From Kiloniellales bacterium (GTDB lineage: Bacteria; Pseudomonadota; Alphaproteobacteria; Kiloniellales; JACOMY01), in NCBI GenBank assembly GCA_040219175.1, contig JAVJSY010000090.1:19386-83385 (forward strand): 64,000 nt of DNA, written 5' to 3'. The notes under the pieces are model-generated. The model saw only the letters and a program-made list of their open reading frames with translations, made no database searches and was not told the origin of the DNA. A program made the position numbers and the translations under genes. This document shows, piece after piece, positions 1-8,229 of this stretch. How positions within the stretch are numbered: position 1 is the first letter of the stretch; each line of letters opens with the position of its first letter.

Positions 1-16
1 GTCATGGCATCCCCCA

Positions 17-781
17 TCAATGAAAGCTCCGCCCGCCGTCGACCGCCAGAGCCGTGCCGGTCACCATGGCTGACTCGGCAGAGCTCAGGTAGAGCGCGGC
101 GTTTGCGATATCGTCCGGCTTGCCGATCCGTCGGATCAGATAGCGATCCAGAATAGACTCCAGTTCCGCGTCTGCATCGGCGGCCCCCTCCAGCGACTGG
201 CGGAAAAGCGGTGTCTCGATGATACCGGGACAGATGGCGTTGACCCGGATCTCGAAACGCGCCAGGTCGACCGCGAGCGCCTTGGCAAACATGACAAGAC
301 CCGCTTTCGAGGCGCAGTAGGCCGTCCGCGCCGCCAGCGGGCGCAAGGCTGCACCGGAAGCGATTTGGACGATGGTGCCGCCCCCGGCCGCGCGCAGGTG
401 GGGCACGGCGGCCGATGTCAGGCTGAAAGCGCCGGTCAGATTGGTGTCGAGGATCGCCCGCCACTCGGCGATGCCCATCTCTTCGAAAGGCTTCAGCAAA
501 TCGATGCCGGCCGCACCGATCAGGCCGTCCAGACCGCCGAGCGCTGCCGCAGCCTCCTCCACGGCGTCGCGCACGCGGTCATCGTTCGTAAGATCGGCCC
601 TGCACGCGACGACGGGCAGTCCGCCGAGCGCTCCCAGCTCACCGGAGACCTCGGCAAGCGCAGCCTCGTCACGATCCAACAGTCCGACCGCAGCACCCTC
701 GCTGTGGAAGAGGGCCGCCGTCGCGCGCCCGATGCCGGACGCAGCGCCCGAGATCAGAATGCGCCGCCCGCTCAATCGCAT
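17..781 (-). CDS. Short-chain dehydrogenase/reductase (classical SDR)
   Basis: 254-aa ORF. Rossmann motif ISGAASGIGRA, catalytic YCASKAG, and NAICPG motif. Confidence 0.85.
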   Translation of the reverse strand: MRLSGRRILISGAASGIGRATAALFHSEGAAVGLLDRDEAALAEVSGELGALGGLPVVACRADLTNDDRVRDAVEEAAAALGGLDGLIGAAGIDLLKPFEEMGIAEWRAILDTNLTGAFSLTSAAVPHLRAAGGGTIVQIASGAALRPLAARTAYCASKAGLVMFAKALAVDLARFEIRVNAICPGIIETPLFRQSLEGAADADAELESILDRYLIRRIGKPDDIANAALYLSSAESAMVTGTALAVDGGRSFH

Positions 782-848
782 GACAAAAAAGGCCGACGCA
801 GAAAGAAGACTCTAGGTGGCATGGAACGAACCTCCGGATAGGCAAACG

Positions 849-1667
849 TCAGGCAAAGCGGTGAAAGCCGACCCAGCGCTCGGCAAGGACAAGGGCCAGG
901 CCGGTGGCCATGATCAGCATGGTCGAGATGGCGGCAATGCCGGGATCGATGCCGTGCTCGACGGCGGTGAAGATCTTCACCGGCAGGGTCGTTTGCCGCA
1001 CGCTCACCAGGAAGATCGAGACCGGCACATTGTCGAAAGAGACGATGAAGGAGAAGATGCCGCCCGCGACCAGCCCCGGCCGGATCAGCGGCAGGGTGGT
1101 CTTGGCAAAGGCCGTCCAGGCATTGGCGCCAAGGGTCCGCGCGGCCTCTTCCAAGGCGGGGTCGGAGCCGGCGATGCTGGCCAGCACGCTGCGCACGACA
1201 TAGGGCAAGGTGATCAGGACATGCGCCACCGCCAGCGCGCCGAAACTGCCGCGCACCCCGACCAGGGTGTAGTATTGCAGCAGCGCCACGGCGACGACAA
1301 CGGCCGGAAAGACCAAGGGGGCCATCAGCGCCGTGGAGATCGCCTCGGATCCCGGTACCTTGCGGCGGATCAGGGCATAGGCGGCGGCGGTTCCCAGGGC
1401 CAAGGAGAACAAGGTGGCCGCACAGGCAAGCGCCAGGCTGAAGAGAATGGCGTCTATGTAGGACTCGTCGCCCAGCACGTCCCAATACCACTCCAGGGTC
1501 AGCCCGACCGGCGGCACGGTGAGGTAGGAGGTGGTGGTGAGCGAGGCCAGCACGATGACGACGACCGGGATCTGCAGGAACAGCAGCACCAAGGCCGCGT
1601 AGAGCGGGAGCGCCGAGCCGGAGAGGCGTCGCGCGATGCGATGGCGTAGCGGCGGTTTTGCGATCAT
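849..1667 (-). CDS. ABC transporter permease (PotC-like)
   Basis: Multi-TM ORF with EAA loop LEEAARTLGANAWTAFAKTTLPLIRPG. I chose the ATG at 1667 because it overlaps the upstream stop (ATGA, 1664-1667). The track ORF extends to 1709. Confidence 0.85.
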   Translation of the reverse strand: MIAKPPLRHRIARRLSGSALPLYAALVLLFLQIPVVVIVLASLTTTSYLTVPPVGLTLEWYWDVLGDESYIDAILFSLALACAATLFSLALGTAAAYALIRRKVPGSEAISTALMAPLVFPAVVVAVALLQYYTLVGVRGSFGALAVAHVLITLPYVVRSVLASIAGSDPALEEAARTLGANAWTAFAKTTLPLIRPGLVAGGIFSFIVSFDNVPVSIFLVSVRQTTLPVKIFTAVEHGIDPGIAAISTMLIMATGLALVLAERWVGFHRFA

Positions 1668-2530
1668 CGGATCGTCGCGAAGTATTTGGCGAGCCGCCCG
1701 GCCAGCCACACCAGCAGCAGCACGATGGCGGTCAGGATGAAGGCCATGGCCGCGCCGCGCGGCCAGTTCAGGCTCTTCAGGAACTCGTCGAAGATCAGGG
1801 TCGACATGACCTGATAGGTCGGCCCGCCCAGCAGCCTGGGCGTCACCAGCGCGCTGATCGTCAGCATGAAGACCAGGATGCTGCCCGAGAGAATGCCGGA
1901 GAGGCTGAGCGGCAGGGTCACCTTGGTGAAGACCTCCAGCCGTGTCGCGCCCAGGGTCTTGGCCGCCCCTTCCAGATCGCGCGGGATGTTCTGGATGGTG
2001 CCGATCAGCACCAGCACCATGAAGGGCAGGAAGATGTGGCTGAGCCCGATCAAGAGGCCGGTGAAGTTGAACAACAGCTGGATCGGCTTCTCGATCAGAT
2101 CGAGCGCGATCAGCCAGTCATTGATCAGCCCGCGCCTGGTCAAAAGCACGATCCAGCCGAAGGAGCGCACGACCAGGTTCAAGAGCAGCGGGAAGACGAC
2201 GAGGATGATCAGCCAGGGCCGCAGGCGAGATTGCGTGCGCGCCAGGAAATAGGCGAGCGGATAGCCCACCACCAGGGTGGCCGCGACCACGATCAGCCCC
2301 AGCGCCAGGGTACGCCCGATGATCTCCAGGTAGAAGCCGTCGCCCAGGATGTGGGTGTAGTTCTCCAGGGTCCAGCTGGTGCCGATCCCCTGCCCCGGCA
2401 CATAGGGATGCAGGCTGGTGGGAACCAGAAACAGCAAGGGGGCCACGAAGACCGCCAGCAGCACAAGCAGCGCCGGCGACAGCAGTCCGTAGCCGGAGCG
2501 ATCGAGCCAGCGGGTTGCTCTTCCCGTCAT
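1664..2530 (-). CDS. ABC transporter permease (PotB-like)
   Basis: 288-aa multi-TM ORF with EAA loop LEGAAKTLGATRLEVFTKVTLPLSLSG. Lies 10 nt downstream of the ATPase stop. Confidence 0.85.
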   Translation of the reverse strand: MTGRATRWLDRSGYGLLSPALLVLLAVFVAPLLFLVPTSLHPYVPGQGIGTSWTLENYTHILGDGFYLEIIGRTLALGLIVVAATLVVGYPLAYFLARTQSRLRPWLIILVVFPLLLNLVVRSFGWIVLLTRRGLINDWLIALDLIEKPIQLLFNFTGLLIGLSHIFLPFMVLVLIGTIQNIPRDLEGAAKTLGATRLEVFTKVTLPLSLSGILSGSILVFMLTISALVTPRLLGGPTYQVMSTLIFDEFLKSLNWPRGAAMAFILTAIVLLLVWLAGRLAKYFATIR

Positions 2531-2540
2531 GCCGCGCTGC

Positions 2541-3617
2541 TCACGATCGGGACATCACGATGACGTCGGCCGGGTCGATAGCGATCCGCACCGGGGTTCC
2601 CGCGGTCGGCAGCGCACCGCCGCGTCCGACGCGCGTCTCGGCATTCAACTCGATGCCGCCCGGCAGGCGGACGACGAACTGTGCCGTGGAGCCGGCGAAG
2701 GACACCATCTCCAGCCTGCCCAGGACTCCCTCGTCCGCTGCTTGGTCAGCCGCGAGCAGCTTCACGCTCTCCTGGCGAATGGTGACATGGACCGGGTCGC
2801 CGGCCTTGGCGCCTAGGGGCAGATGCGTCGTCGCGAAGACCACCCCCTCGGCAAGCGCGACCGTCGCCGGATCGCCGGCCTGGGCCACCTTGGCATCGAA
2901 ACCGTTCGAGCGGCCAAAGAACTCGGCAACGAAGGGAGTTGCCGGATTGTCGTAGATCTCTCGTGGGGTGCCGTACTGCTGCAGCAGCCCGGAAGAGAGG
3001 ACGCAGATTCGATCCGACATCGTCAGCGCTTCCTCCTGGTCGTGCGTGACGAAGACGGTGGTGATCGAGAGCTCCTGCTGCAGACGCCTCAATTCGAAGC
3101 GCATGACATCGCGCAGTTTGGCGTCGAGGTTGCTGAGCGGTTGGACCAGCAGCAGGAATGCCGGCTGGGGGGTGATTGCCCGCGCCAGCGCGACGCGCTG
3201 CTGCTGCCCGCCGGAAAGTTCACGCGGCAGGCGGCGCTCCAGCCCGCCCAGGCGGACCAGTTCCAAGGCCTCGCCGACCCGCTTGCGGATCGCCGCCTCT
3301 TCGACCCGCCGTCGGCGCAGGCCGAAGGCGACATTCTCGAAGACGCTCATGTGCGGGAAGAGGGCATAGGATTGGAAGACCAGGCCGATGTTGCGCTTGT
3401 TCGGCGGCAACCAGGTGACCTCCCGGCCACCGACCCGAATGACGCCGGCATCGGGCTCCAGCAAGCCGGCGACCATACGCAGGATCGTACTCTTGCCGCA
3501 GCCCGAGGGACCCAAGAGCGAGACGAAATCGCCCTGCTCGACCTCGAGCGCAAAGGCATCGACCGCCCGGACCGTGCCGAACTGCTTTGTCAGATTGCTG
3601 ACTTCTAAGGTTGCCAT
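2541..3617 (-). CDS. ABC transporter ATP-binding protein (PotA-like) with degenerate Walker B
   Basis: Start is the ATG at 3617 (MATLEVSNLTKQF). The upstream 84 codons of the track ORF are Arg/Pro-rich read-through. Walker A GPSGCGKST, Q-loop VFQSYALFPHM, signature LSGGQQQRVALARA and H-loop FVTHDQ are all present. Walker B reads FLLLVQP instead of hhhhDE. Confidence 0.85.
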   Translation of the reverse strand: MATLEVSNLTKQFGTVRAVDAFALEVEQGDFVSLLGPSGCGKSTILRMVAGLLEPDAGVIRVGGREVTWLPPNKRNIGLVFQSYALFPHMSVFENVAFGLRRRRVEEAAIRKRVGEALELVRLGGLERRLPRELSGGQQQRVALARAITPQPAFLLLVQPLSNLDAKLRDVMRFELRRLQQELSITTVFVTHDQEEALTMSDRICVLSSGLLQQYGTPREIYDNPATPFVAEFFGRSNGFDAKVAQAGDPATVALAEGVVFATTHLPLGAKAGDPVHVTIRQESVKLLAADQAADEGVLGRLEMVSFAGSTAQFVVRLPGGIELNAETRVGRGGALPTAGTPVRIAIDPADVIVMSRS

Positions 3618-3633
3618 GCTCTCACCGCCAAAG

Positions 3634-3657
3634 GGTGGCGGCGTGCAAGCCGCCACC
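3634..3657 (-). promoter_or_regulatory. Intercistronic GC-rich stem-loop between the SBP and ATPase genes
   Basis: ggtggcggc-gtgcaa-gccgccacc: 9-bp perfect stem with a 6-nt loop. It sits in the 71-nt gap between the SBP stop (3689) and the ATPase start (3617). Confidence 0.45.
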
Positions 3658-3688
3658 GCTCTGTGGAAGGGGACAGGGGGGTGACGGC

Positions 3689-4729
3689 CTAGCGCGCCAC
3701 TTCCTTCTGCCAACGCTCGGTCCAGCCCGGACGCAGCTTGGAGACCGCGTCGGTGTCGGGGTACCAGAGATTGTCGTAGCTTTCGCCGAAGGGGACGATC
3801 GCCTTGACCTTGTCGCTGAGGTCGACCTTGGTGTTCACCGGGCCGGCGTACTTCTTTTCGGCGAAGCACTTCTGGCCCTCCGGCGACAGCAGCACGTCGA
3901 TGAAGGCCATCGCCAGCTCCTGGTTCTTGGCGTCCTTGGGCACGACCACGGTCGGCTGGATGCCGACAGCACCCTCCTTGGGATAGGCCACGGCCACGGG
4001 CACGCCCTTGTCTGCGGCAGAGCCGATGCGGTCGGGATACCAGGGCGCCATCACGATCTCGCCACGCTCGAAAAGCTGCACCAGCTGATCGGCCTGGGTA
4101 TAGAGCATCACCACGTTCGGCATCAGGCCCTCGATCGCCTCGAAGCCGGCATCCTGGCTCTCGAAGTCGCCGCCCTTCATCTTGTTGACCGCGACCAGGA
4201 AATGCATGCCCGAGGTGCCGGTGATGTCGCCCAGCGCGATCTTCTCGGCGTACTTCGGATCGAAGAGATCGTTCCAGGAGGTCGGCGGCGTATCGATCTC
4301 GTTGGGATTGTAGGCAATTACCGTCGCCGCGGTCATGAAGTTGACGAACTGGTTGTCCGCATCGAAGGCCTGCTTGGCCACGTCGTCATAGTTGGAGAGG
4401 CTGGCGAAATCGACCGTCTCCAGCAGTCCCTCACTCTTCATCTGTTTGGCAATGGAGATGTCCATATAGGCAACGTCGATCTCCGGATCGCCGGCGGTCG
4501 CGCGAATCTTGGCGGCATTGTCGACGGAACTGCCGAAGGTCACGATGGCCTCCGCGCCGGTCGCCTTCTCGAAGACCTCGACATGGCAGGTCTTGGTGTC
4601 GTCGCCGAAGGAGCCGCCGAAAGTCGAGATGACCAGTTCGCCGTCCGCCTGTGCGGATCCGGCAGCGCCGGCGATTGCCAGGATCGCTGCCCCGGCCAGG
4701 CTGGCCTTGAGGTACCCTATCGTTTTCAT
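3689..4729 (-). CDS. Periplasmic solute-binding protein, family 1 (PotD/PotF-like)
   Basis: Start is the ATG at 4729 (MKTIGYLKASLAGAAILAIAGAAGSAQA, a Sec signal peptide). Its ATG overlaps the stop of the preceding MarR-fragment ORF (ATGA). The rest of the 414-aa track ORF is read-through. Confidence 0.85.
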   Translation of the reverse strand: MKTIGYLKASLAGAAILAIAGAAGSAQADGELVISTFGGSFGDDTKTCHVEVFEKATGAEAIVTFGSSVDNAAKIRATAGDPEIDVAYMDISIAKQMKSEGLLETVDFASLSNYDDVAKQAFDADNQFVNFMTAATVIAYNPNEIDTPPTSWNDLFDPKYAEKIALGDITGTSGMHFLVAVNKMKGGDFESQDAGFEAIEGLMPNVVMLYTQADQLVQLFERGEIVMAPWYPDRIGSAADKGVPVAVAYPKEGAVGIQPTVVVPKDAKNQELAMAFIDVLLSPEGQKCFAEKKYAGPVNTKVDLSDKVKAIVPFGESYDNLWYPDTDAVSKLRPGWTERWQKEVAR

Positions 4730-4950
4730 TGGTGCTCTCCCTCTTCGTTGATGGTTACGGGTTCTTGGATGCGGCTCCTGGCGGCGGGTGGTGCCGGGCG
4801 CGGCTGCAGCGAGGCGGTCGGCGCACTGTTCGCCATCAGCATGCAGCTCAGCATGGCCGCAAGCTGCGACTGCTCGGCTTGCGTGAACATGGAGACCAGG
4901 GCGCGCTCCATTGCCGCCTGGTCCTGCATACAACGATCGGCAAGGTCCCG
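4635..4950. repeat. Direct repeat copy 1 (316 bp) of the MarR-3'/SBP-5' junction
   Basis: Aligns to 5238-5553 at a constant offset of 603 bp. My manual alignment gives 5 mismatches and no indels. Confidence 0.95.
4726..4950 (-). pseudogene. Duplicated C-terminal fragment of the MarR gene (no wHTH domain)
   Basis: Encodes ...LADRCMQDQAAMERALVSMFTQAEQSQLAAMLSCMLMANSAPTASLQPRPAPPAARSRIQEPVTINEEGEHQ. This is near-identical to the C-terminus of the intact MarR at 5329-5958. Confidence 0.8.
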
Positions 4951-5002
4951 GCGTGGAACCTGATGTTGACGAATTGCTCTCGCACGATCTCCCCCTTTCG
5001 CG

Positions 5003-5167
5003 CTATTCTTCCACGACCGCTTTGTGCGATCGCAGGGTGATGTCGTAGGGACCCACACAGGTGTTGCAGGCCTTCTGTGGGGTATTCCAGTAGGTGGCCT
5101 TGCACCCGCTGGCGGCGATCAGGATCACCAAAACGGCAGCCAGGACCCAGAGTGCGCGGGTCGGCAT
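5003..5167 (-). CDS. Hypothetical 54-aa lipoprotein-like ORF inside the unique insert
   Basis: MPTRALWVLAAVLVILIAASGCKATYWNTPQKACNTCVGPYDITLRSHKAVVEE. It has an n-region, a hydrophobic core and a lipobox-like AASGC. It is also in frame with the truncated SBP start at 5332, giving a 110-codon chimeric ORF. Confidence 0.4.
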   Translation of the reverse strand: MPTRALWVLAAVLVILIAASGCKATYWNTPQKACNTCVGPYDITLRSHKAVVEE

Positions 5168-5237
5168 CACTCGGAGACCCCGGGTACGCCGGCGCTGAAG
5201 GCCGGCACGTATCCCGCCTCTTGCACGGCCGTCTTCA

Positions 5238-5332
5238 AGTTCGCCGTCCGCCTGTGCGGATCCGGCAGCGCCGGCGATTGCCAGGATCGCTGCCCCGGCC
5301 AGGCTGGCCTTGAGGTACCCAATCGTTTTCAT
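5238..5332 (-). pseudogene. Truncated 5' fragment of the SBP gene (signal peptide only)
   Basis: MKTIGYLKASLAGAAILAIAGAAGSAQADGEL is identical to the N-terminus of the SBP at 3689-4729. It then diverges into insert sequence. Confidence 0.8.
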
Positions 5333-5553
5333 TGGTGCTCTCCCTCTTCGTTGATGGTCACGGGTTCTTGGATCCGGCTCCTGGCGGCGGGTGGTGCCGG
5401 GCGCGGCTGCAGCGAAGCGGTCGGCGCACTGTTCGCCATCAGCATGCGGCTCAGCATGGCCGCAAGCTGCGACTGCTCGGCTTGCGTGAACATGGAGACC
5501 AGGGCGCGCTCCATTGCCGCCTGGTCCTGCATACAACGATCGGCAAGCTCCCG
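5238..5553. repeat. Direct repeat copy 2 (316 bp)
   Basis: See copy 1. Contains the authentic MarR 3' end plus a truncated copy of the SBP signal-peptide region. Confidence 0.95.
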
Positions 5554-5958
5554 CCCTGCCGGGGTCAGCTCGACGATGACGCCACGCCCGTCCCTCGGAT
5601 CGGACAGACGGCGGATCCAGCCGATGCCTTCCAGCCGTCCCAACAGGTTGGAGGTACCGCCGGACGTCAGGAGCAAGGTTTCTCTCAGGCGGGACGGCGA
5701 CATGCGGAAGGGTGCACCGGCGGCCCGCAAGGTCGCCAGCACGGCGTAGGAGGGGTAGCGCAGACCATGGCGCTGCAGGGTTTCGTTCATGGCGCGCAGA
5801 ATGACCTCCTGCAACGCCAGGACACGGCCGACCACCGCCTTGCCGGAACAATCGATGTCCGGGCGCTCATGCCGCCACTGCGCCATCCCGCGCCCGACAA
5901 GATCGAACGCAGGGCTAATATCGCCTCCCAGCGCATGATCGCCCTCGTCTCCTTGCAC
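5329..5958 (-). CDS. MarR-family transcriptional regulator
   Basis: 209-aa ORF (GTG start at 5958; an alternative ATG gives MAQWRHERPDID). Paralogous to 12531-13085, sharing W/RxERPDIDCxGKAVxGRxL and TSGGTSNLLxRLE (wHTH). Confidence 0.85.
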   Translation of the reverse strand: MQGDEGDHALGGDISPAFDLVGRGMAQWRHERPDIDCSGKAVVGRVLALQEVILRAMNETLQRHGLRYPSYAVLATLRAAGAPFRMSPSRLRETLLLTSGGTSNLLGRLEGIGWIRRLSDPRDGRGVIVELTPAGRELADRCMQDQAAMERALVSMFTQAEQSQLAAMLSRMLMANSAPTASLQPRPAPPAARSRIQEPVTINEEGEHQ

Positions 5959-6007
5959 CCACGCACCTCCAGCCTCTTGCGATAACGAGGAGGAAAGTAG
6001 CTCATTT

Positions 6008-6035
6008 TTATCTTTTTCAAAAGGTATCTTTCGAC
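6008..6035. promoter_or_regulatory. AT-rich conserved box, site 1 (candidate MarR operator)
   Basis: ttatctttttcaaaaggtatctttcgac, 50-77 bp upstream of the MarR start. Matches 19 of 23 positions of site 2 (8119-8143) and shares the GAAAGATAC-N-GAAA(A)G architecture with site 3. Confidence 0.45.
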
Positions 6036-6068
6036 ACCCTGTCCAAGATCAGGGCCGAGGGCCGCTTC

Positions 6069-7055
6069 TCAGCCGGTCTCTTCCGGGTAGTGACAGGCGA
6101 TGAAATGGCCGGGCAGCAGTTCGCGAAAGTCGGGCACGGCCTGGCTGCACAGCGGGCTGCTTTTCGGGCAGCGGGTGCTGAAGACACAGCCCTTGGGCGG
6201 GTTTGCCGGGCTTGGGATATCGCCCTTGAGGATGACCCGTTGGCGGCTCTCTTCCAGCTCCGGGTCCGGCAGGGGAACGGCCGAGATCAGCGCCTGGGTA
6301 TAGGGATGGCGCGGCTGCTCGAGGATGGTCTTGGCGTCGGACAGCTCCATGATCTTGCCCAGATACATGACGGCGACGCGGTCGCTGATGTGGCCGACCA
6401 TGCTGAGGTCGTGGGCGATGAAGAGGTAGGCCACGCCGAGCCGTGCCTGCAGATCGACCAGCAGATTGACGATCTGTGCCTGGATCGAGACGTCGAGCGA
6501 GGCGATGGCCTCGTCGCAGACAATCAGGTCGGGTTCCAGCGCCAGGGCCCTGGCGATGCCGATCCGCTGGCGCTGGCCGCCGGAGAACTCGTGCGGGTAG
6601 CGGCTGGCGTGCGTTGGGTCCAGTCCGACCAGATCGAGCAGCCCGCTCACCCGCTGGCGCAGATCTGCGCGCGTGAGGCCGCCGCGCACCTCCAGCGGTT
6701 CGCCGACGATCTCACCCACCCGCATCCGTGGATTGAGGGCCGCATAAGGGTCCTGGAAGACCATCTGGACACGCTGCCGGGCCCGCTTCAGCGCGTCGCC
6801 TCTGAGGGCCAGAAAGTCGCTTCCTTCCAGCAGCACCTCGCCGGCCGTTGCGGCCTGCAGACCGACCAGGGTGCGCCCGACCGTGGTCTTGCCGCTGCCG
6901 CTCTCGCCGACCAGGCCCAGGGTCTCGCCCTTGGCGATGGAGAAGCTGACGCCATCGACGGCCTTGACGTCCCCGACCTTGCGCCCGAAGAGCCCCCCGC
7001 TGGTGACCGGGAAGTAGGTCTTGAGATCGCTGAGTTGGAGCAATGCCGGAGCCAT
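6069..7055 (-). CDS. Oligopeptide/dipeptide ABC transporter ATP-binding protein (OppF/DppF-like)
   Basis: Start is the ATG at 7055 ([17 protein letters not shown]). Walker [10 protein letters not shown], signature [14 protein letters not shown], Walker [13 protein letters not shown], and a C-terminal oligopeptide-type extension. Confidence 0.9.
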
Positions 7056-7056
7056 C

Positions 7057-8046
7057 TCAGACCTCCGCAGCCAGCTCTTGCCAGCGCCAGCAGCGCACCT
7101 GACGCGCCGAGCCCTCGGGCAGCATCGACGGCGGCATCTCGGCAAGGCAGCGGCTCTCGGCAAGGGCACAGCGCGGCGCAAAGGGGCAGCCGCTCCCCAG
7201 TCCGCCCAGGTTCGGCGGCCGTCCCGGGATCGAGGAGAGCTTGCCGCTGGAGGGCCGATCCAAACGCGGCACCGATGCCAAGAGGCCCTTGGTATAGGGG
7301 TGATAGGGCTGGCGATAGATCTCGCGCACCGGACCGCTCTCGATCAGGCGGCCGGCATACATCACGTTCACCCGATGGGCCAAGCCGGCGACGATGCCCA
7401 AATCGTGGCTGATCCAGATGACCGTCAGCTGCAGTTCGCGGCGCAACTCTTTAATCAGTTCAACGATCTGGGCCTGGATGGTGACATCCAGGGCCGTCGT
7501 CGGCTCGTCGGCGATCAGCAGTTTCGGACCGCACGCCAAGGCCATCGCAATCATCACCCTTTGGCGCATACCGCCCGAAAGTGCGTGCGGATAGCTGCGC
7601 AGCCGCAAGTCCGGATCGGGAATTCCTACCAGATCCAACAACTCGGCAGAGCGCCGCCTGGCAGCGCCAGCCGTCATACCCAGGTGCGCGCGCAGAGTCT
7701 CTGCCAGCTGGAAGCCGATCGAGTAGACGGGATTGAGAGAAGAGATCGGATCCTGAAAGATCATGGCGATCTCCTTGCCGCGGACCCGGCGCATCTGCGG
7801 CTCCGGCAAGGACAGAAGGTCTTGGCCCTGAAAGCGCACCCTGCCAGCCACGATACGGCCGGGCGGTGTCGGCACCAAGCGCATGATCGAGAGCGCGTGC
7901 ACCGACTTGCCGGAGCCGCTCTCCCCGACCACACCCAGAACCTCGCCCTCATCCAGCCTGTAGGAGACGCCGTCGACGGCTTGCACAGGCCCGGTCTCCG
8001 CCTCGAAGCAGGTGGTGAGGTCCTCGACCTCCAAGAGTGCCGTCAT
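7057..8046 (-). CDS. Oligopeptide/dipeptide ABC transporter ATP-binding protein (OppD/DppD-like)
   Basis: 329 aa. Walker A GESGSGKS, signature [14 protein letters not shown], Walker [13 protein letters not shown]. Confidence 0.9.
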
Positions 8047-8118
8047 CGATCCTCGCTAAGCTCTGTGGCTAGGGGGTGACCCGGCCTGCACCCCTGGCAA
8101 TGCTAGCTCTCGGCAGAT

Positions 8119-8143
8119 GCCTTTTCAAAAAGTATCTTTCATC
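8119..8143. promoter_or_regulatory. AT-rich conserved box, site 2
   Basis: gccttttcaaaaagtatctttcatc, in the divergent intergenic region between the ATPase start (8046) and the SBP start (8230). Confidence 0.45.
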
Positions 8144-8229
8144 AAACATACCTCTTGACCCCGATTTGAACCCTACGATAGCCTTCCTGCAGTCTCCGCC
8201 AGCCGCCTATCGGAAGAGGAACGTATGCC

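What the first reader, a model, noticed from the sequence alone, without database searches (positions are those of the whole stretch)
4635..5553. Recent H-P-H duplication-insertion at the MarR/binding-protein junction (Campbell-type signature)
Seen:
- A 316-bp segment (4635-4950) recurs at 5238-5553 at a constant 603-bp offset. My manual alignment gives 5 mismatches and no indels.
- The repeat spans the last ~70 codons of marR, the ATGA stop/start overlap, and the first ~31 codons (signal peptide) of the SBP gene.
- The two copies flank 287 bp of unique DNA (4951-5237).

Consequences: the intact marR (5329-5958) is now followed by a truncated SBP start. The intact SBP gene (3689-4729) is preceded by, and still ATGA-coupled to, a headless marR C-terminal fragment.

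Inference: the topology is homology - payload - homology. Single-crossover integration of a small circular or templated DNA carrying 316 bp of homology would produce exactly this, whereas a simple tandem duplication would give H-P-H-P. The insertion physically uncouples the regulator from the transporter genes and should be unstable, because recombination between the repeats would excise it.
Basis: partly seen in the sequence, partly recalled or inferred. Interest (0 to 1): 0.6.

Follow-up and report, generated by a model that had tools for sequence, protein, structure and literature searches.

The report
Phage DNA scrap between duplicated gene junction
A 310-base stretch spanning the end of a regulator gene and the start of a transporter gene is present twice, with about 290 bases of captured phage DNA between the copies. 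It looks like a real but ordinary scar of sloppy short-homology DNA joining, not the integration of a small DNA circle.

Summary
Window 4635-4950 recurs at 5238-5553 (offset 603, no indels) with 6 mismatches, not 5. The sixth (4945/5548) belongs to the junction, so the duplicated segment is about 4635-4944 (310 bp, 5 mismatches).

- **Derived state:** five relatives carry one marR-SBP junction and no payload.
- **Payload is a phage fragment:** it holds the last 23 codons of one gene and a 54-aa lipoprotein-like gene. The only two homologue clusters of that gene, among 1.8 billion representatives, sit in phage-like gene arrays. It ends with a ribosome-binding site, GTG and the first 15 codons of a phrog_6247 ("DNA topoisomerase") gene.
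- **Junction:** at the one that can be judged, donor and marR share an imperfect 10-of-11 microhomology.
- **No mobility functions:** there is no integrase, no terminal inverted repeats and no second copy.
- **Assembly support:** Logan contigs of run SRR26147846 (same strain) end exactly 30 nt inside each outer repeat edge.

Best reading: microhomology-mediated illegitimate recombination or template switching duplicated 310 bp and captured phage DNA at the joint. H-P-H topology is not diagnostic of Campbell integration.

This scan has noted similar captured fragments flanked by target duplications on other DNA. Interest is low to moderate.

The parts
3689..4729 (-). Intact periplasmic substrate-binding protein gene (346 aa, PotD/PhnS-like). 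It is the first transporter gene and is followed by ATPase and two permease genes.
   Evidence: Pfam SBP_bac_8 E 7.6e-32. NCBIfam PotD/PhnS hits fall below the equivalog cut-offs. Relatives have the same marR-SBP-ATPase-permease-permease order.
4635..4944 (.). Repeat copy A (H_A), 310 bp: SBP codons 1-31 plus the last 73 codons of marR.
   Evidence: It has 5 mismatches to copy B. The last 31-mer shared by the two copies starts at 4914.
4726..4944 (-). Headless marR 3' fragment, still ATGA-overlapped with the SBP start. It carries Cys where intact MarR and both aligned relatives' MarR proteins (L025, L026) have Arg.
   Evidence: R170 is invariant in MarR; the fragment has C. Outgroup DNA has C at that base.
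4941..4955 (.). Junction J1 (payload to copy A): imperfect microhomology. The donor reads ...GCCGGGACCTTG and marR reads ...GGCGGGAGCTTG (minus strand).
   Evidence: The alignment of the two copies fades out over 4945-4955. The conserved Thr-Leu codons of the phrog_6247 N-terminus run into the shared CTTG.
4941..4985 (-). GTG plus the first 15 codons (VREQFVNIRFHAGTL) of a phage phrog_6247-type ('DNA topoisomerase') gene, cut off by the junction. It is preceded by GGGGGAG at 4989-4995.
   Evidence: It matches the N-termini of L027 (MKEKFIDINFRAPTL), own-genome C51 (MKEAFITKRFQQKTL) and Variovorax phage VCLv21 (MKEAFVEIAFRRKTL). Only 2 of 333,872 start-anchored 15-mers in the genome score as high, and the other is the true C51 gene.
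4945..5237 (-). Payload: a 293-bp contiguous internal fragment of a phage-like gene array (gene X tail, lipoprotein gene, start of a phrog_6247 gene).
   Evidence: Single copy in the own genome. Absent from five relatives. Coding-like GC3 in the two frames used. Homologues sit in phage-like contigs.
5003..5167 (-). 54-aa lipoprotein-like ORF: a signal-like helix, then SGC, then a Cys-x2-Cys-x-GPYDxTLRSH motif.
   Evidence: phmmer against 1.84e9 representatives finds only P0123 (E 5e-6) as a homologue outside the window. A profile search adds P0126. GC by codon position is 0.55/0.49/0.80. There is no Pfam or PHROG family.
5167..5237 (-). Last 23 codons (…KTAVQEAGYVPAFSAGVPGVSE) of an unidentified upstream gene X. 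Its TGA overlaps the ATG of the lipoprotein ORF (TGATG).
   Evidence: GC by codon position is 0.67/0.54/0.83. No homologue was found.
5238..5547 (.). Repeat copy B (H_B), 310 bp.
   Evidence: Logan contig L035 ends at 5518, 30 nt inside its marR-side edge.
5003..5332 (-). 109-aa fused ORF: the orphaned SBP start (ribosome-binding site plus 31-codon signal peptide) runs in frame through a 24-codon linker into the lipoprotein ORF. It is ATGA-coupled to intact marR.
   Evidence: It is present as a called gene product, P0121. Expression is untested.
5329..5958 (-). Intact marR (209 aa).
   Evidence: Pfam MarR_2 and MarR. It is 81% and 75% identical to the MarR of L025 and L026.

Best explanation
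This is a lineage-specific structural scar made by illegitimate, microhomology-guided DNA joining.

**Ancestral state.** The locus was marR followed directly by the transporter's binding-protein gene.

**The event (inferred).** In an ancestor of this strain, a replication or repair accident duplicated 310 bp spanning the marR 3' end and the SBP 5' end. The accident could have been a nascent strand switching templates, or broken ends or staggered nicks rejoined out of register. The new joint was filled with about 293 bp copied or captured from phage DNA then present in the cell, either an infecting phage or a prophage now absent from the assembly. One donor/target junction used an imperfect 10-of-11-base match (CGGGAsCTTG).

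**Result (shown).** On the minus strand the order is now:
1. Intact marR.
2. A duplicated ribosome-binding site plus SBP signal peptide, fused in frame to a phage lipoprotein ORF.
3. A 15-codon stub of a phage gene.
4. A dead marR tail.
5. The intact SBP gene with its own ribosome-binding site.

**Shown versus inferred.** The duplication, the empty site in relatives, the phage origin of the payload and the microhomology at one junction are shown. The one-step, replication- or repair-associated route is inferred. So is the view that the event is neutral or nearly so.
For: - **Repeat and payload coordinates:**
- **Empty, single-copy junction in five relatives:**
- **Payload is a contiguous phage fragment cut without regard to gene borders:**
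  - The lipoprotein ORF has homologues only in arrays of tiny 4-nt-overlapping genes.
  - One of those arrays carries phrog_6247 (E 9e-107), phrog_1362 and a phage ACP-like gene.
  - The 15-codon stub matches phrog_6247 N-termini, with an empirical rank of 2 among 333,872.
  - phrog_6247 genes are widespread in phages: 84 records.
- **Junction J1** shows imperfect microhomology, and the similarity fades rather than ending cleanly.
- **No transposon-like or element features:** no inverted repeats at the payload ends, and no other copy in the genome. Nor is there a copy in the phage, viral, genome or metagenome collections.
- **No Ku or LigD polymerase domain** in a marker-complete genome. This favours template switching or alternative end joining over classical NHEJ.
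- **Both outer repeat edges are graph branch points** in an independent k=31 assembly of the same strain.
- **Background:** bacterial tandem duplications without flanking homology are attributed to microhomology-mediated end joining or template switching (bioRxiv 10.64898/2026.05.22.727201). A 9-bp microhomology suffices for precise illegitimate duplication (PMC11111574).
Against: - The donor phage sequence is unknown. Microhomology at the second junction (5237/5238) therefore cannot be judged, and the microhomology at J1 rests partly on conserved Thr-Leu codons.
- The copies differ at 5 of 310 bases (1.6%). That is surprisingly old for a 310-bp direct repeat only 293 bp apart, which RecA-dependent or RecA-independent deletion should remove quickly. 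A one-step endogenous event starts with identical copies and does not explain this divergence. Retention by selection, or an incoming diverged allele, would explain it.
- No reads could be examined. Copy number, circles and mixed alleles are all untested.
Confidence: 0.55

Rival explanations
1. Exogenous DNA carrying a homologous anchor. A hybrid molecule from a related strain, made of phage fragment P joined to marR/SBP sequence H', entered the cell. It integrated in one of two ways. One is a Campbell-type single crossover of a 603-bp H'+P circle. The other is homology-facilitated illegitimate recombination, with one homologous end and one microhomology end landing 310 bp out of register.
For: - The topology fits.
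- The 1.6% divergence between the copies is of within-species size. It would already be present at birth if H' came from another strain, which removes the persistence problem.
- Four of the five differences are synonymous third-position changes.
- The payload is phage DNA, and phages make phage-host hybrid molecules.
Against: - A 603-bp circle, or an H'+P hybrid, needs its own illegitimate joins first, so the model needs at least as many steps.
- The payload has no replicon, integrase or att features. It is a collinear scrap, not the remainder of an element.
- The synonymous bias is not significant. Copy B is under selection and copy A decays freely, so about 46% synonymous changes are expected, and 3 of 4 in the marR part gives P of about 0.25 by my calculation.
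- The one non-synonymous change is a derived Arg-to-Cys in the dead fragment, as in-situ decay predicts.
- No sister-strain allele is available.
Confidence: 0.22
2. Two separate events. First came a plain 310-bp tandem duplication of the marR/SBP junction. Later a phage fragment inserted exactly at the joint. Alternatively, a larger phage insertion with a target duplication was later trimmed by deletion.
For: - The genome carries other small tandem duplications, for example a perfect 97-bp one on C39.
- The divergence suggests that the structure has had a long history.
Against: - An insertion landing exactly at the duplication joint, to the base, is improbable.
- The payload is collinear with the natural phage gene order and shows no internal deletion scar.
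Confidence: 0.08
3. Assembly artefact or strain-mixture chimera. On this view the chromosome has one H, and the second copy and the payload come from misjoined reads or from a co-occurring variant.
For: - The assembly is a 109-contig draft.
- G000 differs from the Logan assembly of the same strain by four clustered bases at 3143-3173, so local assembly noise or strain heterogeneity does exist.
- No reads could be laid.
- The payload ORF was not found among the gene products on record from the Logan run.
Against: - The two junctions share at most about 11 bases of similarity, so no k-mer graph can bridge them without real junction reads.
- The copies differ at 5 sites and share no exact stretch longer than 99 bp, so a standard assembler can resolve them.
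- An independent k=31 assembly breaks exactly 30 nt inside both outer repeat edges, one of them predicted in advance.
Confidence: 0.07

Closest known systems
Microhomology-mediated illegitimate recombination or template switching that produces tandem duplications with inserted 'filler' at the joint. Examples are RecA-independent template switching and alternative end joining in bacteria, and FoSTeS/MMBIR-type events in eukaryotes.
   Same: - Duplication in direct orientation with no flanking homology that could have made it.
- Foreign sequence sits exactly at the novel joint.
- The assessable junction shows short imperfect microhomology.
- The payload is cut without regard to gene borders.
- Relatives have the empty site.
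   Different: - The mechanism is inferred from the scar only.
- The filler comes from phage DNA rather than from a nearby chromosomal template.
- The copies have since diverged by 1.6%.
Double illegitimate recombination and homology-facilitated illegitimate recombination of foreign DNA, known from natural transformation of Acinetobacter baylyi, Pseudomonas stutzeri and Streptococcus pneumoniae. This comparison rests on my own knowledge. SPDIR is summarised in bioRxiv 10.1101/2023.11.22.568220 (listed).
   Same: A short foreign segment is integrated through GC-rich microhomologies, without any element-encoded recombinase.
   Different: - Those events usually replace or delete recipient DNA. Here 310 bp of recipient DNA is duplicated.
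- Competence of this organism is unknown.
- A homologous anchor has not been demonstrated.
Campbell-type single-crossover integration, as seen with suicide plasmids, specialised transducing phages and integrative vectors.
   Same: The homologous segment is duplicated in direct orientation on both sides of the insert, and the insert can be lost by recombination between the copies.
   Different: - The insert is not the rest of a replicon or element. It is 293 bp with truncated genes at both ends.
- No donor circle is known.
- The junction shows a microhomology fade-out.
Activation or capture of horizontally transferred genes by duplication that places them behind a host promoter or gene start (PMC11111574). 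Analogous cases were noted earlier in this scan (e1-4539546, e1-1950389).
   Same: A foreign ORF ends up in frame behind a duplicated host ribosome-binding site and first codons, while the duplication preserves the host gene.
   Different: There is no evidence here of selection or expression. The in-frame fusion has a one-in-three chance expectation.

Membership tests
Campbell-type integration of a circular replicon or element | A direct duplication of the shared homologous segment flanks the insert. | tested here: met
   4635-4944 and 5238-5547 flank the payload.
Campbell-type integration of a circular replicon or element | The insert is the remainder of a circular donor (plasmid, phage or ICE) with recognisable replicon or element functions. 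| tested here: not met
   The payload is 293 bp: a 23-codon gene tail, one 54-aa ORF and a 15-codon gene stub. It has no Pfam, NCBIfam or PHROG replicon or integrase hit.
Campbell-type integration of a circular replicon or element | A donor molecule carrying H next to P exists. | not testable with these tools
   No other copy of the payload was found in the own genome, phage records, viral, genome or metagenome contigs.
Site-specific prophage or integrative element | An integrase plus att core repeats, usually at a tRNA or another conserved site. | tested here: not met
   There is no integrase-sized ORF. The flanking repeat is 310 bp of coding sequence, not an att core.
IS, MITE or transposon insertion | Terminal inverted repeats, a short (2-14 bp) target duplication and multiple genomic copies. 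| tested here: not met
   No inverted repeat lies at the payload ends. The duplication is 310 bp. The payload is single-copy.
Microhomology-mediated illegitimate recombination or template switching | No extended homology between insert and target, with short (micro)homology at the junctions. | tested here: inconclusive
   J1 shows an imperfect 10-of-11 match and fading similarity over 4945-4955. J2 cannot be judged because the donor sequence upstream of the payload is unknown.
Microhomology-mediated illegitimate recombination or template switching | Relatives have the ancestral empty site. | tested here: met
   G003, G004, G008, L025 and L026 each have one marR-SBP junction without the payload.
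Classical Ku/LigD non-homologous end joining | The genome encodes Ku and LigD. | tested here: not met
   PF02735 and TIGR02778 give no match in the 100%-complete genome, and the control genome Bacillus subtilis is detected.
phrog_6247 (phage 'DNA topoisomerase'-annotated family), for the 4941-4985 stub | A full-length match of about 300 aa to the family profile. | tested here: not met
   Only the first 15 codons are present. They match the family's N-terminal pattern (E3, F5, I/V6, F10, T14, L15) at an empirical rank of 2 among 333,872. It is a fragment of a member, not a gene.
Bacterial or phage lipoprotein, for the 54-aa ORF | An N-terminal signal helix followed by a lipobox Cys. | tested here: inconclusive
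   A hydrophobic helix followed by (A/F/L)(S/T)(G/S)C is conserved in all three family members. No signal-peptide predictor was available. The NCBIfam 'invert_tail' hit is below its cut-off (17.5 against 37 bits).

The most novel reading that the evidence does not exclude
The scar may be a selected gene birth. The duplication supplied a spare copy of the MarR-controlled promoter context, ribosome-binding site and Sec signal peptide. That copy now drives a rare phage lipoprotein (three known family members), possibly a superinfection-exclusion-type moron, as a 109-aa fusion protein. The original transporter gene stays intact. Selection for this fusion would explain why an intrinsically unstable 310-bp direct repeat has persisted long enough to diverge by 1.6%.
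Probability: 0.1. Interest if true: 0.5.

Novelty: new member of a known kind. Interest (0 to 1): 0.27.

Why it matters
This is a clean natural example of how bacteria pick up scraps of phage DNA without any mobile-element machinery. The duplication that accompanies such a capture can preserve the interrupted host genes and also hand the newcomer a promoter, ribosome-binding site and signal peptide. The case has some value for people who study illegitimate recombination and the origin of chimeric genes, and as a caution for annotation: the locus now yields a fused 109-aa ORF and a headless marR fragment. It does not open a new biological question. The payload also adds a third member, and the first one embedded in a chromosome, to a very rare family of small phage lipoproteins.

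Tried and rejected
**Searching for the donor of the payload: nothing found**
- blastn against the own genome.
- Protein search of 41 relatives.
- Word-indexed protein search.
- Pattern scans of genome contigs, metagenome contigs and viral contigs.
- tblastn and blastn against 50,697 phage records.
- Only the exhaustive phmmer search found relatives.

**Other payload checks**
- The gene X tail (23 aa) matched nothing.
- Pfam, NCBIfam and PHROGs gave no family for the 54-aa ORF.

**Polarising the five copy differences with outgroups**
- Only one site (4845/5448) is alignable and informative.
- I first read the excess of synonymous differences as evidence for a foreign allele. I rejected this once the null model allowed for selection on copy B only (P about 0.25).

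**Read and contig look-ups**
- Exact-product look-ups of the SBP, MarR and the 109-aa fusion found nothing.
- An 87-aa partial product predicted for a payload contig also found nothing, probably because so short a contig has no gene call.

**Models and side leads rejected**
- A simple tandem-duplication model (H-P-H-P followed by an exact deletion) is unparsimonious.
- Whole-prophage integration followed by internal deletion is rejected because the payload is collinear with the natural gene order.
- I looked for an ectopic donor of the 4-mismatch patch at 3143-3173 and found none.
Full report
**1. Observation**

The repeat is real. Three methods place window 4635-4950 again at 5238-5553, at a constant 603-bp offset with no indels: the repeat finder, a MAFFT alignment with flanks and blastn against the whole 5.6-Mb assembly.

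- Five lie in 4635-4944, at 4718, 4756, 4771, 4813 and 4845.
- The sixth (4945/5548) opens an 11-base zone where similarity fades (8 of 11 bases) instead of stopping.
- I therefore take the duplicated segment as 4635-4944 / 5238-5547 (310 bp) and the payload as 4945-5237 (293 bp).

These are the only copies in the genome, and the payload is single-copy. Genome-wide, this is the only local direct repeat longer than 300 bp at 98% identity or more.

- marR at 5329-5958 (minus strand) is intact (Pfam MarR/MarR_2; 81% identical to a relative's MarR).
- The SBP gene at 3689-4729 (minus strand) is intact (SBP_bac_8).
- Both ATGA stop/start overlaps are present.

**2. Is it an assembly artefact?**

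Exact-product look-ups did find Logan contigs of run SRR26147846 that belong to the same strain.

| Locus | Window range | Identity |
|---|---|---|
| L034 | 6884-14046 | 100% |
| L035 | 5518-6589 | 100% |
| L033 | 1-4664 | 4 clustered mismatches |

- L033 stops at 4664, which is 4634+30.
- L035 stops at 5518, which is 5548-30.
- Logan assembles with k=31 (my own knowledge), so a contig is expected to run k-1 = 30 bases into a repeat and stop where the graph branches.
- I predicted the L035 end, as a 147-aa truncated MarR product, before the look-up, and the look-up found it.
- Logan contigs also break elsewhere for unknown reasons (6589 and 6884), but two breaks at the exact predicted bases are very unlikely to be chance.
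- The two novel junctions share at most about 11 bases with the target, so no k-mer graph could bridge them without real junction reads.
- The copies share no exact stretch longer than 99 bp.

I put an artefact at about 7%. I cannot exclude other copy numbers, such as arrays, or an excised circle alongside a single-H chromosome.

**3. Polarity**

The nearest sampled relatives all carry one marR directly followed by one SBP gene, with no payload. They are G003 (also retrieved as OY770029.1, a Rhodospirillales MAG), G004, G008, the Logan contig L025 (SBP 93% identical in protein) and the Tara contig L026. Both window copies map onto the same single segment in these relatives. The duplication-insertion is therefore derived in this lineage. 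No sister strain of intermediate distance was available, so the date is open.

**4. What the payload is**

Read on the minus strand, which is the gene direction, the payload has three parts.

(a) **A 23-codon gene tail.**
- It reads …KTAVQEAGYVPAFSAGVPGVSE.
- GC by codon position is coding-like (0.67/0.54/0.83).
- Its TGA overlaps the next ATG.

(b) **A 54-aa ORF (5167 to 5003).**
- It has a hydrophobic helix, then SGC, then CxxCxGPYDxTLRSH.
- GC by codon position is 0.55/0.49/0.80.
- An exhaustive phmmer search of 1.84 billion representatives found only one homologue outside the window, P0123 (82 aa, E 5e-6).
- A profile search added P0126. The motif is conserved in all three.

(c) **A gene start.**
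- After the stop come GGGGGAG, a GTG and 15 codons, VREQFVNIRFHAGTL.

Both homologues of the 54-aa ORF lie in arrays of many tiny genes with 4-nt overlaps on short metagenomic contigs. One of these, L027, also carries:
- a 328-aa phrog_6247 protein ('DNA topoisomerase', E 9e-107);
- a phrog_1362 protein;
- a phage ACP-like protein.

phrog_6247 relatives occur in 84 phage records.

The 15-codon stub matches the N-termini of three phrog_6247 proteins:

| Source | First 15 residues |
|---|---|
| Payload stub | VREQFVNIRFHAGTL |
| L027 | MKEKFIDINFRAPTL |
| Own genome, contig C51 | MKEAFITKRFQQKTL |
| Variovorax phage VCLv21 | MKEAFVEIAFRRKTL |

I scored every start-codon-anchored 15-mer in all six frames of the genome. 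Only 2 of 333,872 reach the payload's score, and the other is the genuine C51 gene.

The payload is therefore a contiguous internal scrap of a phage replication or early-gene module, cut inside genes at both ends. The C51 island is not the donor, because it shows no DNA similarity to the payload.

**5. The junctions**

At J1 the donor reads …GCC GGG ACC TTG (…A G T L, with T-L conserved in the family). marR reads …GGC GGG AGC TTG CC…. The two share CGGGAsCTTG, and the crossover lies in or just after CTTG. That is imperfect, GC-rich microhomology, typical of illegitimate recombination. J2 (5237/5238) cannot be judged without the donor sequence.

Other relevant features:
- The payload has no terminal inverted repeats.
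- It has no integrase or replicon function.
- The genome lacks Ku and the LigD polymerase domain. This speaks against classical NHEJ and for template switching or alternative end joining.

**6. Mechanism**

H-P-H is produced by Campbell integration of an H+P circle. It is produced equally well by a duplication of H with filler captured at the novel joint, which is the same as an insertion with a 310-bp target duplication. A 603-bp H+P circle would itself need two illegitimate joins, and nothing in the payload suggests a replicon.

I therefore favour (0.55) a one-step, microhomology-guided replication or repair accident that captured phage DNA. Background on non-homologous routes to bacterial duplications is in bioRxiv 10.64898/2026.05.22.727201 and PMC11111574.

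One fact does not fit well. The copies differ by 1.6%, which is old for an unstable close direct repeat. An incoming diverged allele would explain this, and I give that rival 0.22; it covers Campbell integration or homology-facilitated illegitimate recombination of a phage-host hybrid from a related strain. Selection for retention would also explain it.

Four of the five differences are synonymous. Once copy B is treated as constrained and copy A as free, this is not significant (about 0.25 by my calculation). The one non-synonymous change is a derived Arg-to-Cys in the dead fragment, as in-situ decay predicts.

**7. Consequences**

- Intact marR is now ATGA-coupled to a 109-aa fused ORF made of the SBP signal peptide, a linker and the lipoprotein ORF. 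The same ORF appears among the protein-library hits as P0121.
- The SBP gene keeps its own ribosome-binding site behind the dead marR tail.
- No terminator-like site is predicted in the insert, so co-transcription is probably kept.
- The in-frame fusion has a one-in-three chance expectation. Expression is untested.

**8. Comparison and verdict**

This is a new instance of a known kind of event: illegitimate capture of foreign DNA with a target duplication. Notes from this scan describe analogous cases on other DNA (e1-4539546, e1-1950389, e1-2329073, e1-3226637). I did not check those notes, and they do not count as support.

The Campbell reading is only partly supported. Interest is low to moderate.

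Noticed in passing
window 3143-3173 (ABC ATPase gene, minus strand): The window differs from the Logan contig of the same strain (L033, run SRR26147846) at four clustered bases: 3143, 3145, 3156 and 3173. All four changes are non-synonymous. Logan reads AIAPQPALLLLDEPLSNLD, with a canonical Walker B D-E. The window reads AITPQPAFLLLVQPLSNLD. The odd Walker B noted earlier (e1-4126459) may therefore be an assembly error or a strain variant. No ectopic donor for the patch exists in the genome.
   Followed up: partly
own genome contig C51:28607-32470 (L031): A full-length phrog_6247 'DNA topoisomerase' gene (E 6e-104) sits next to two further ORFs (210 aa and 257 aa) that I did not characterise. 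It is probably part of a phage-like island. It has no DNA similarity to the payload, so it is not the donor.
   Followed up: partly
L027 (Logan SRR35925452), L028 and L029 (ENA), L030 (Logan SRR33770990): A very rare family of small phage lipoprotein-like proteins has the motif C-x2-C-[IV]-GPYD-[IV]-TL-x-SH. Only three clusters exist among about 15 billion proteins. Their function is unknown, and they always sit among tiny overlapping early-type genes.
   Followed up: partly
window 4726-4790 and 5329-5393 (marR 3' end): This MarR has a C-terminal tail about 10 residues longer than its relatives. Small indels relative to G003 and L025 create the ATGA overlap with the SBP start. Relatives have a 27-67 nt spacer instead.
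   Followed up: partly
own genome C39:134437-134630, C67:9195-12514 and C98:9841-13982: Other local direct repeats: a perfect 97-bp tandem duplication on C39, a 428-bp pair (96%) with a 2.5-kb spacer on C67, and a 323-bp pair (95%) with a 3.5-kb spacer on C98.
   Followed up: no
window 6589-6884: Logan contigs of the same strain break at 6589 and 6884, although no 31-mer there is repeated in the assembly. This may reflect a coverage gap or heterogeneity in that run.
   Followed up: no
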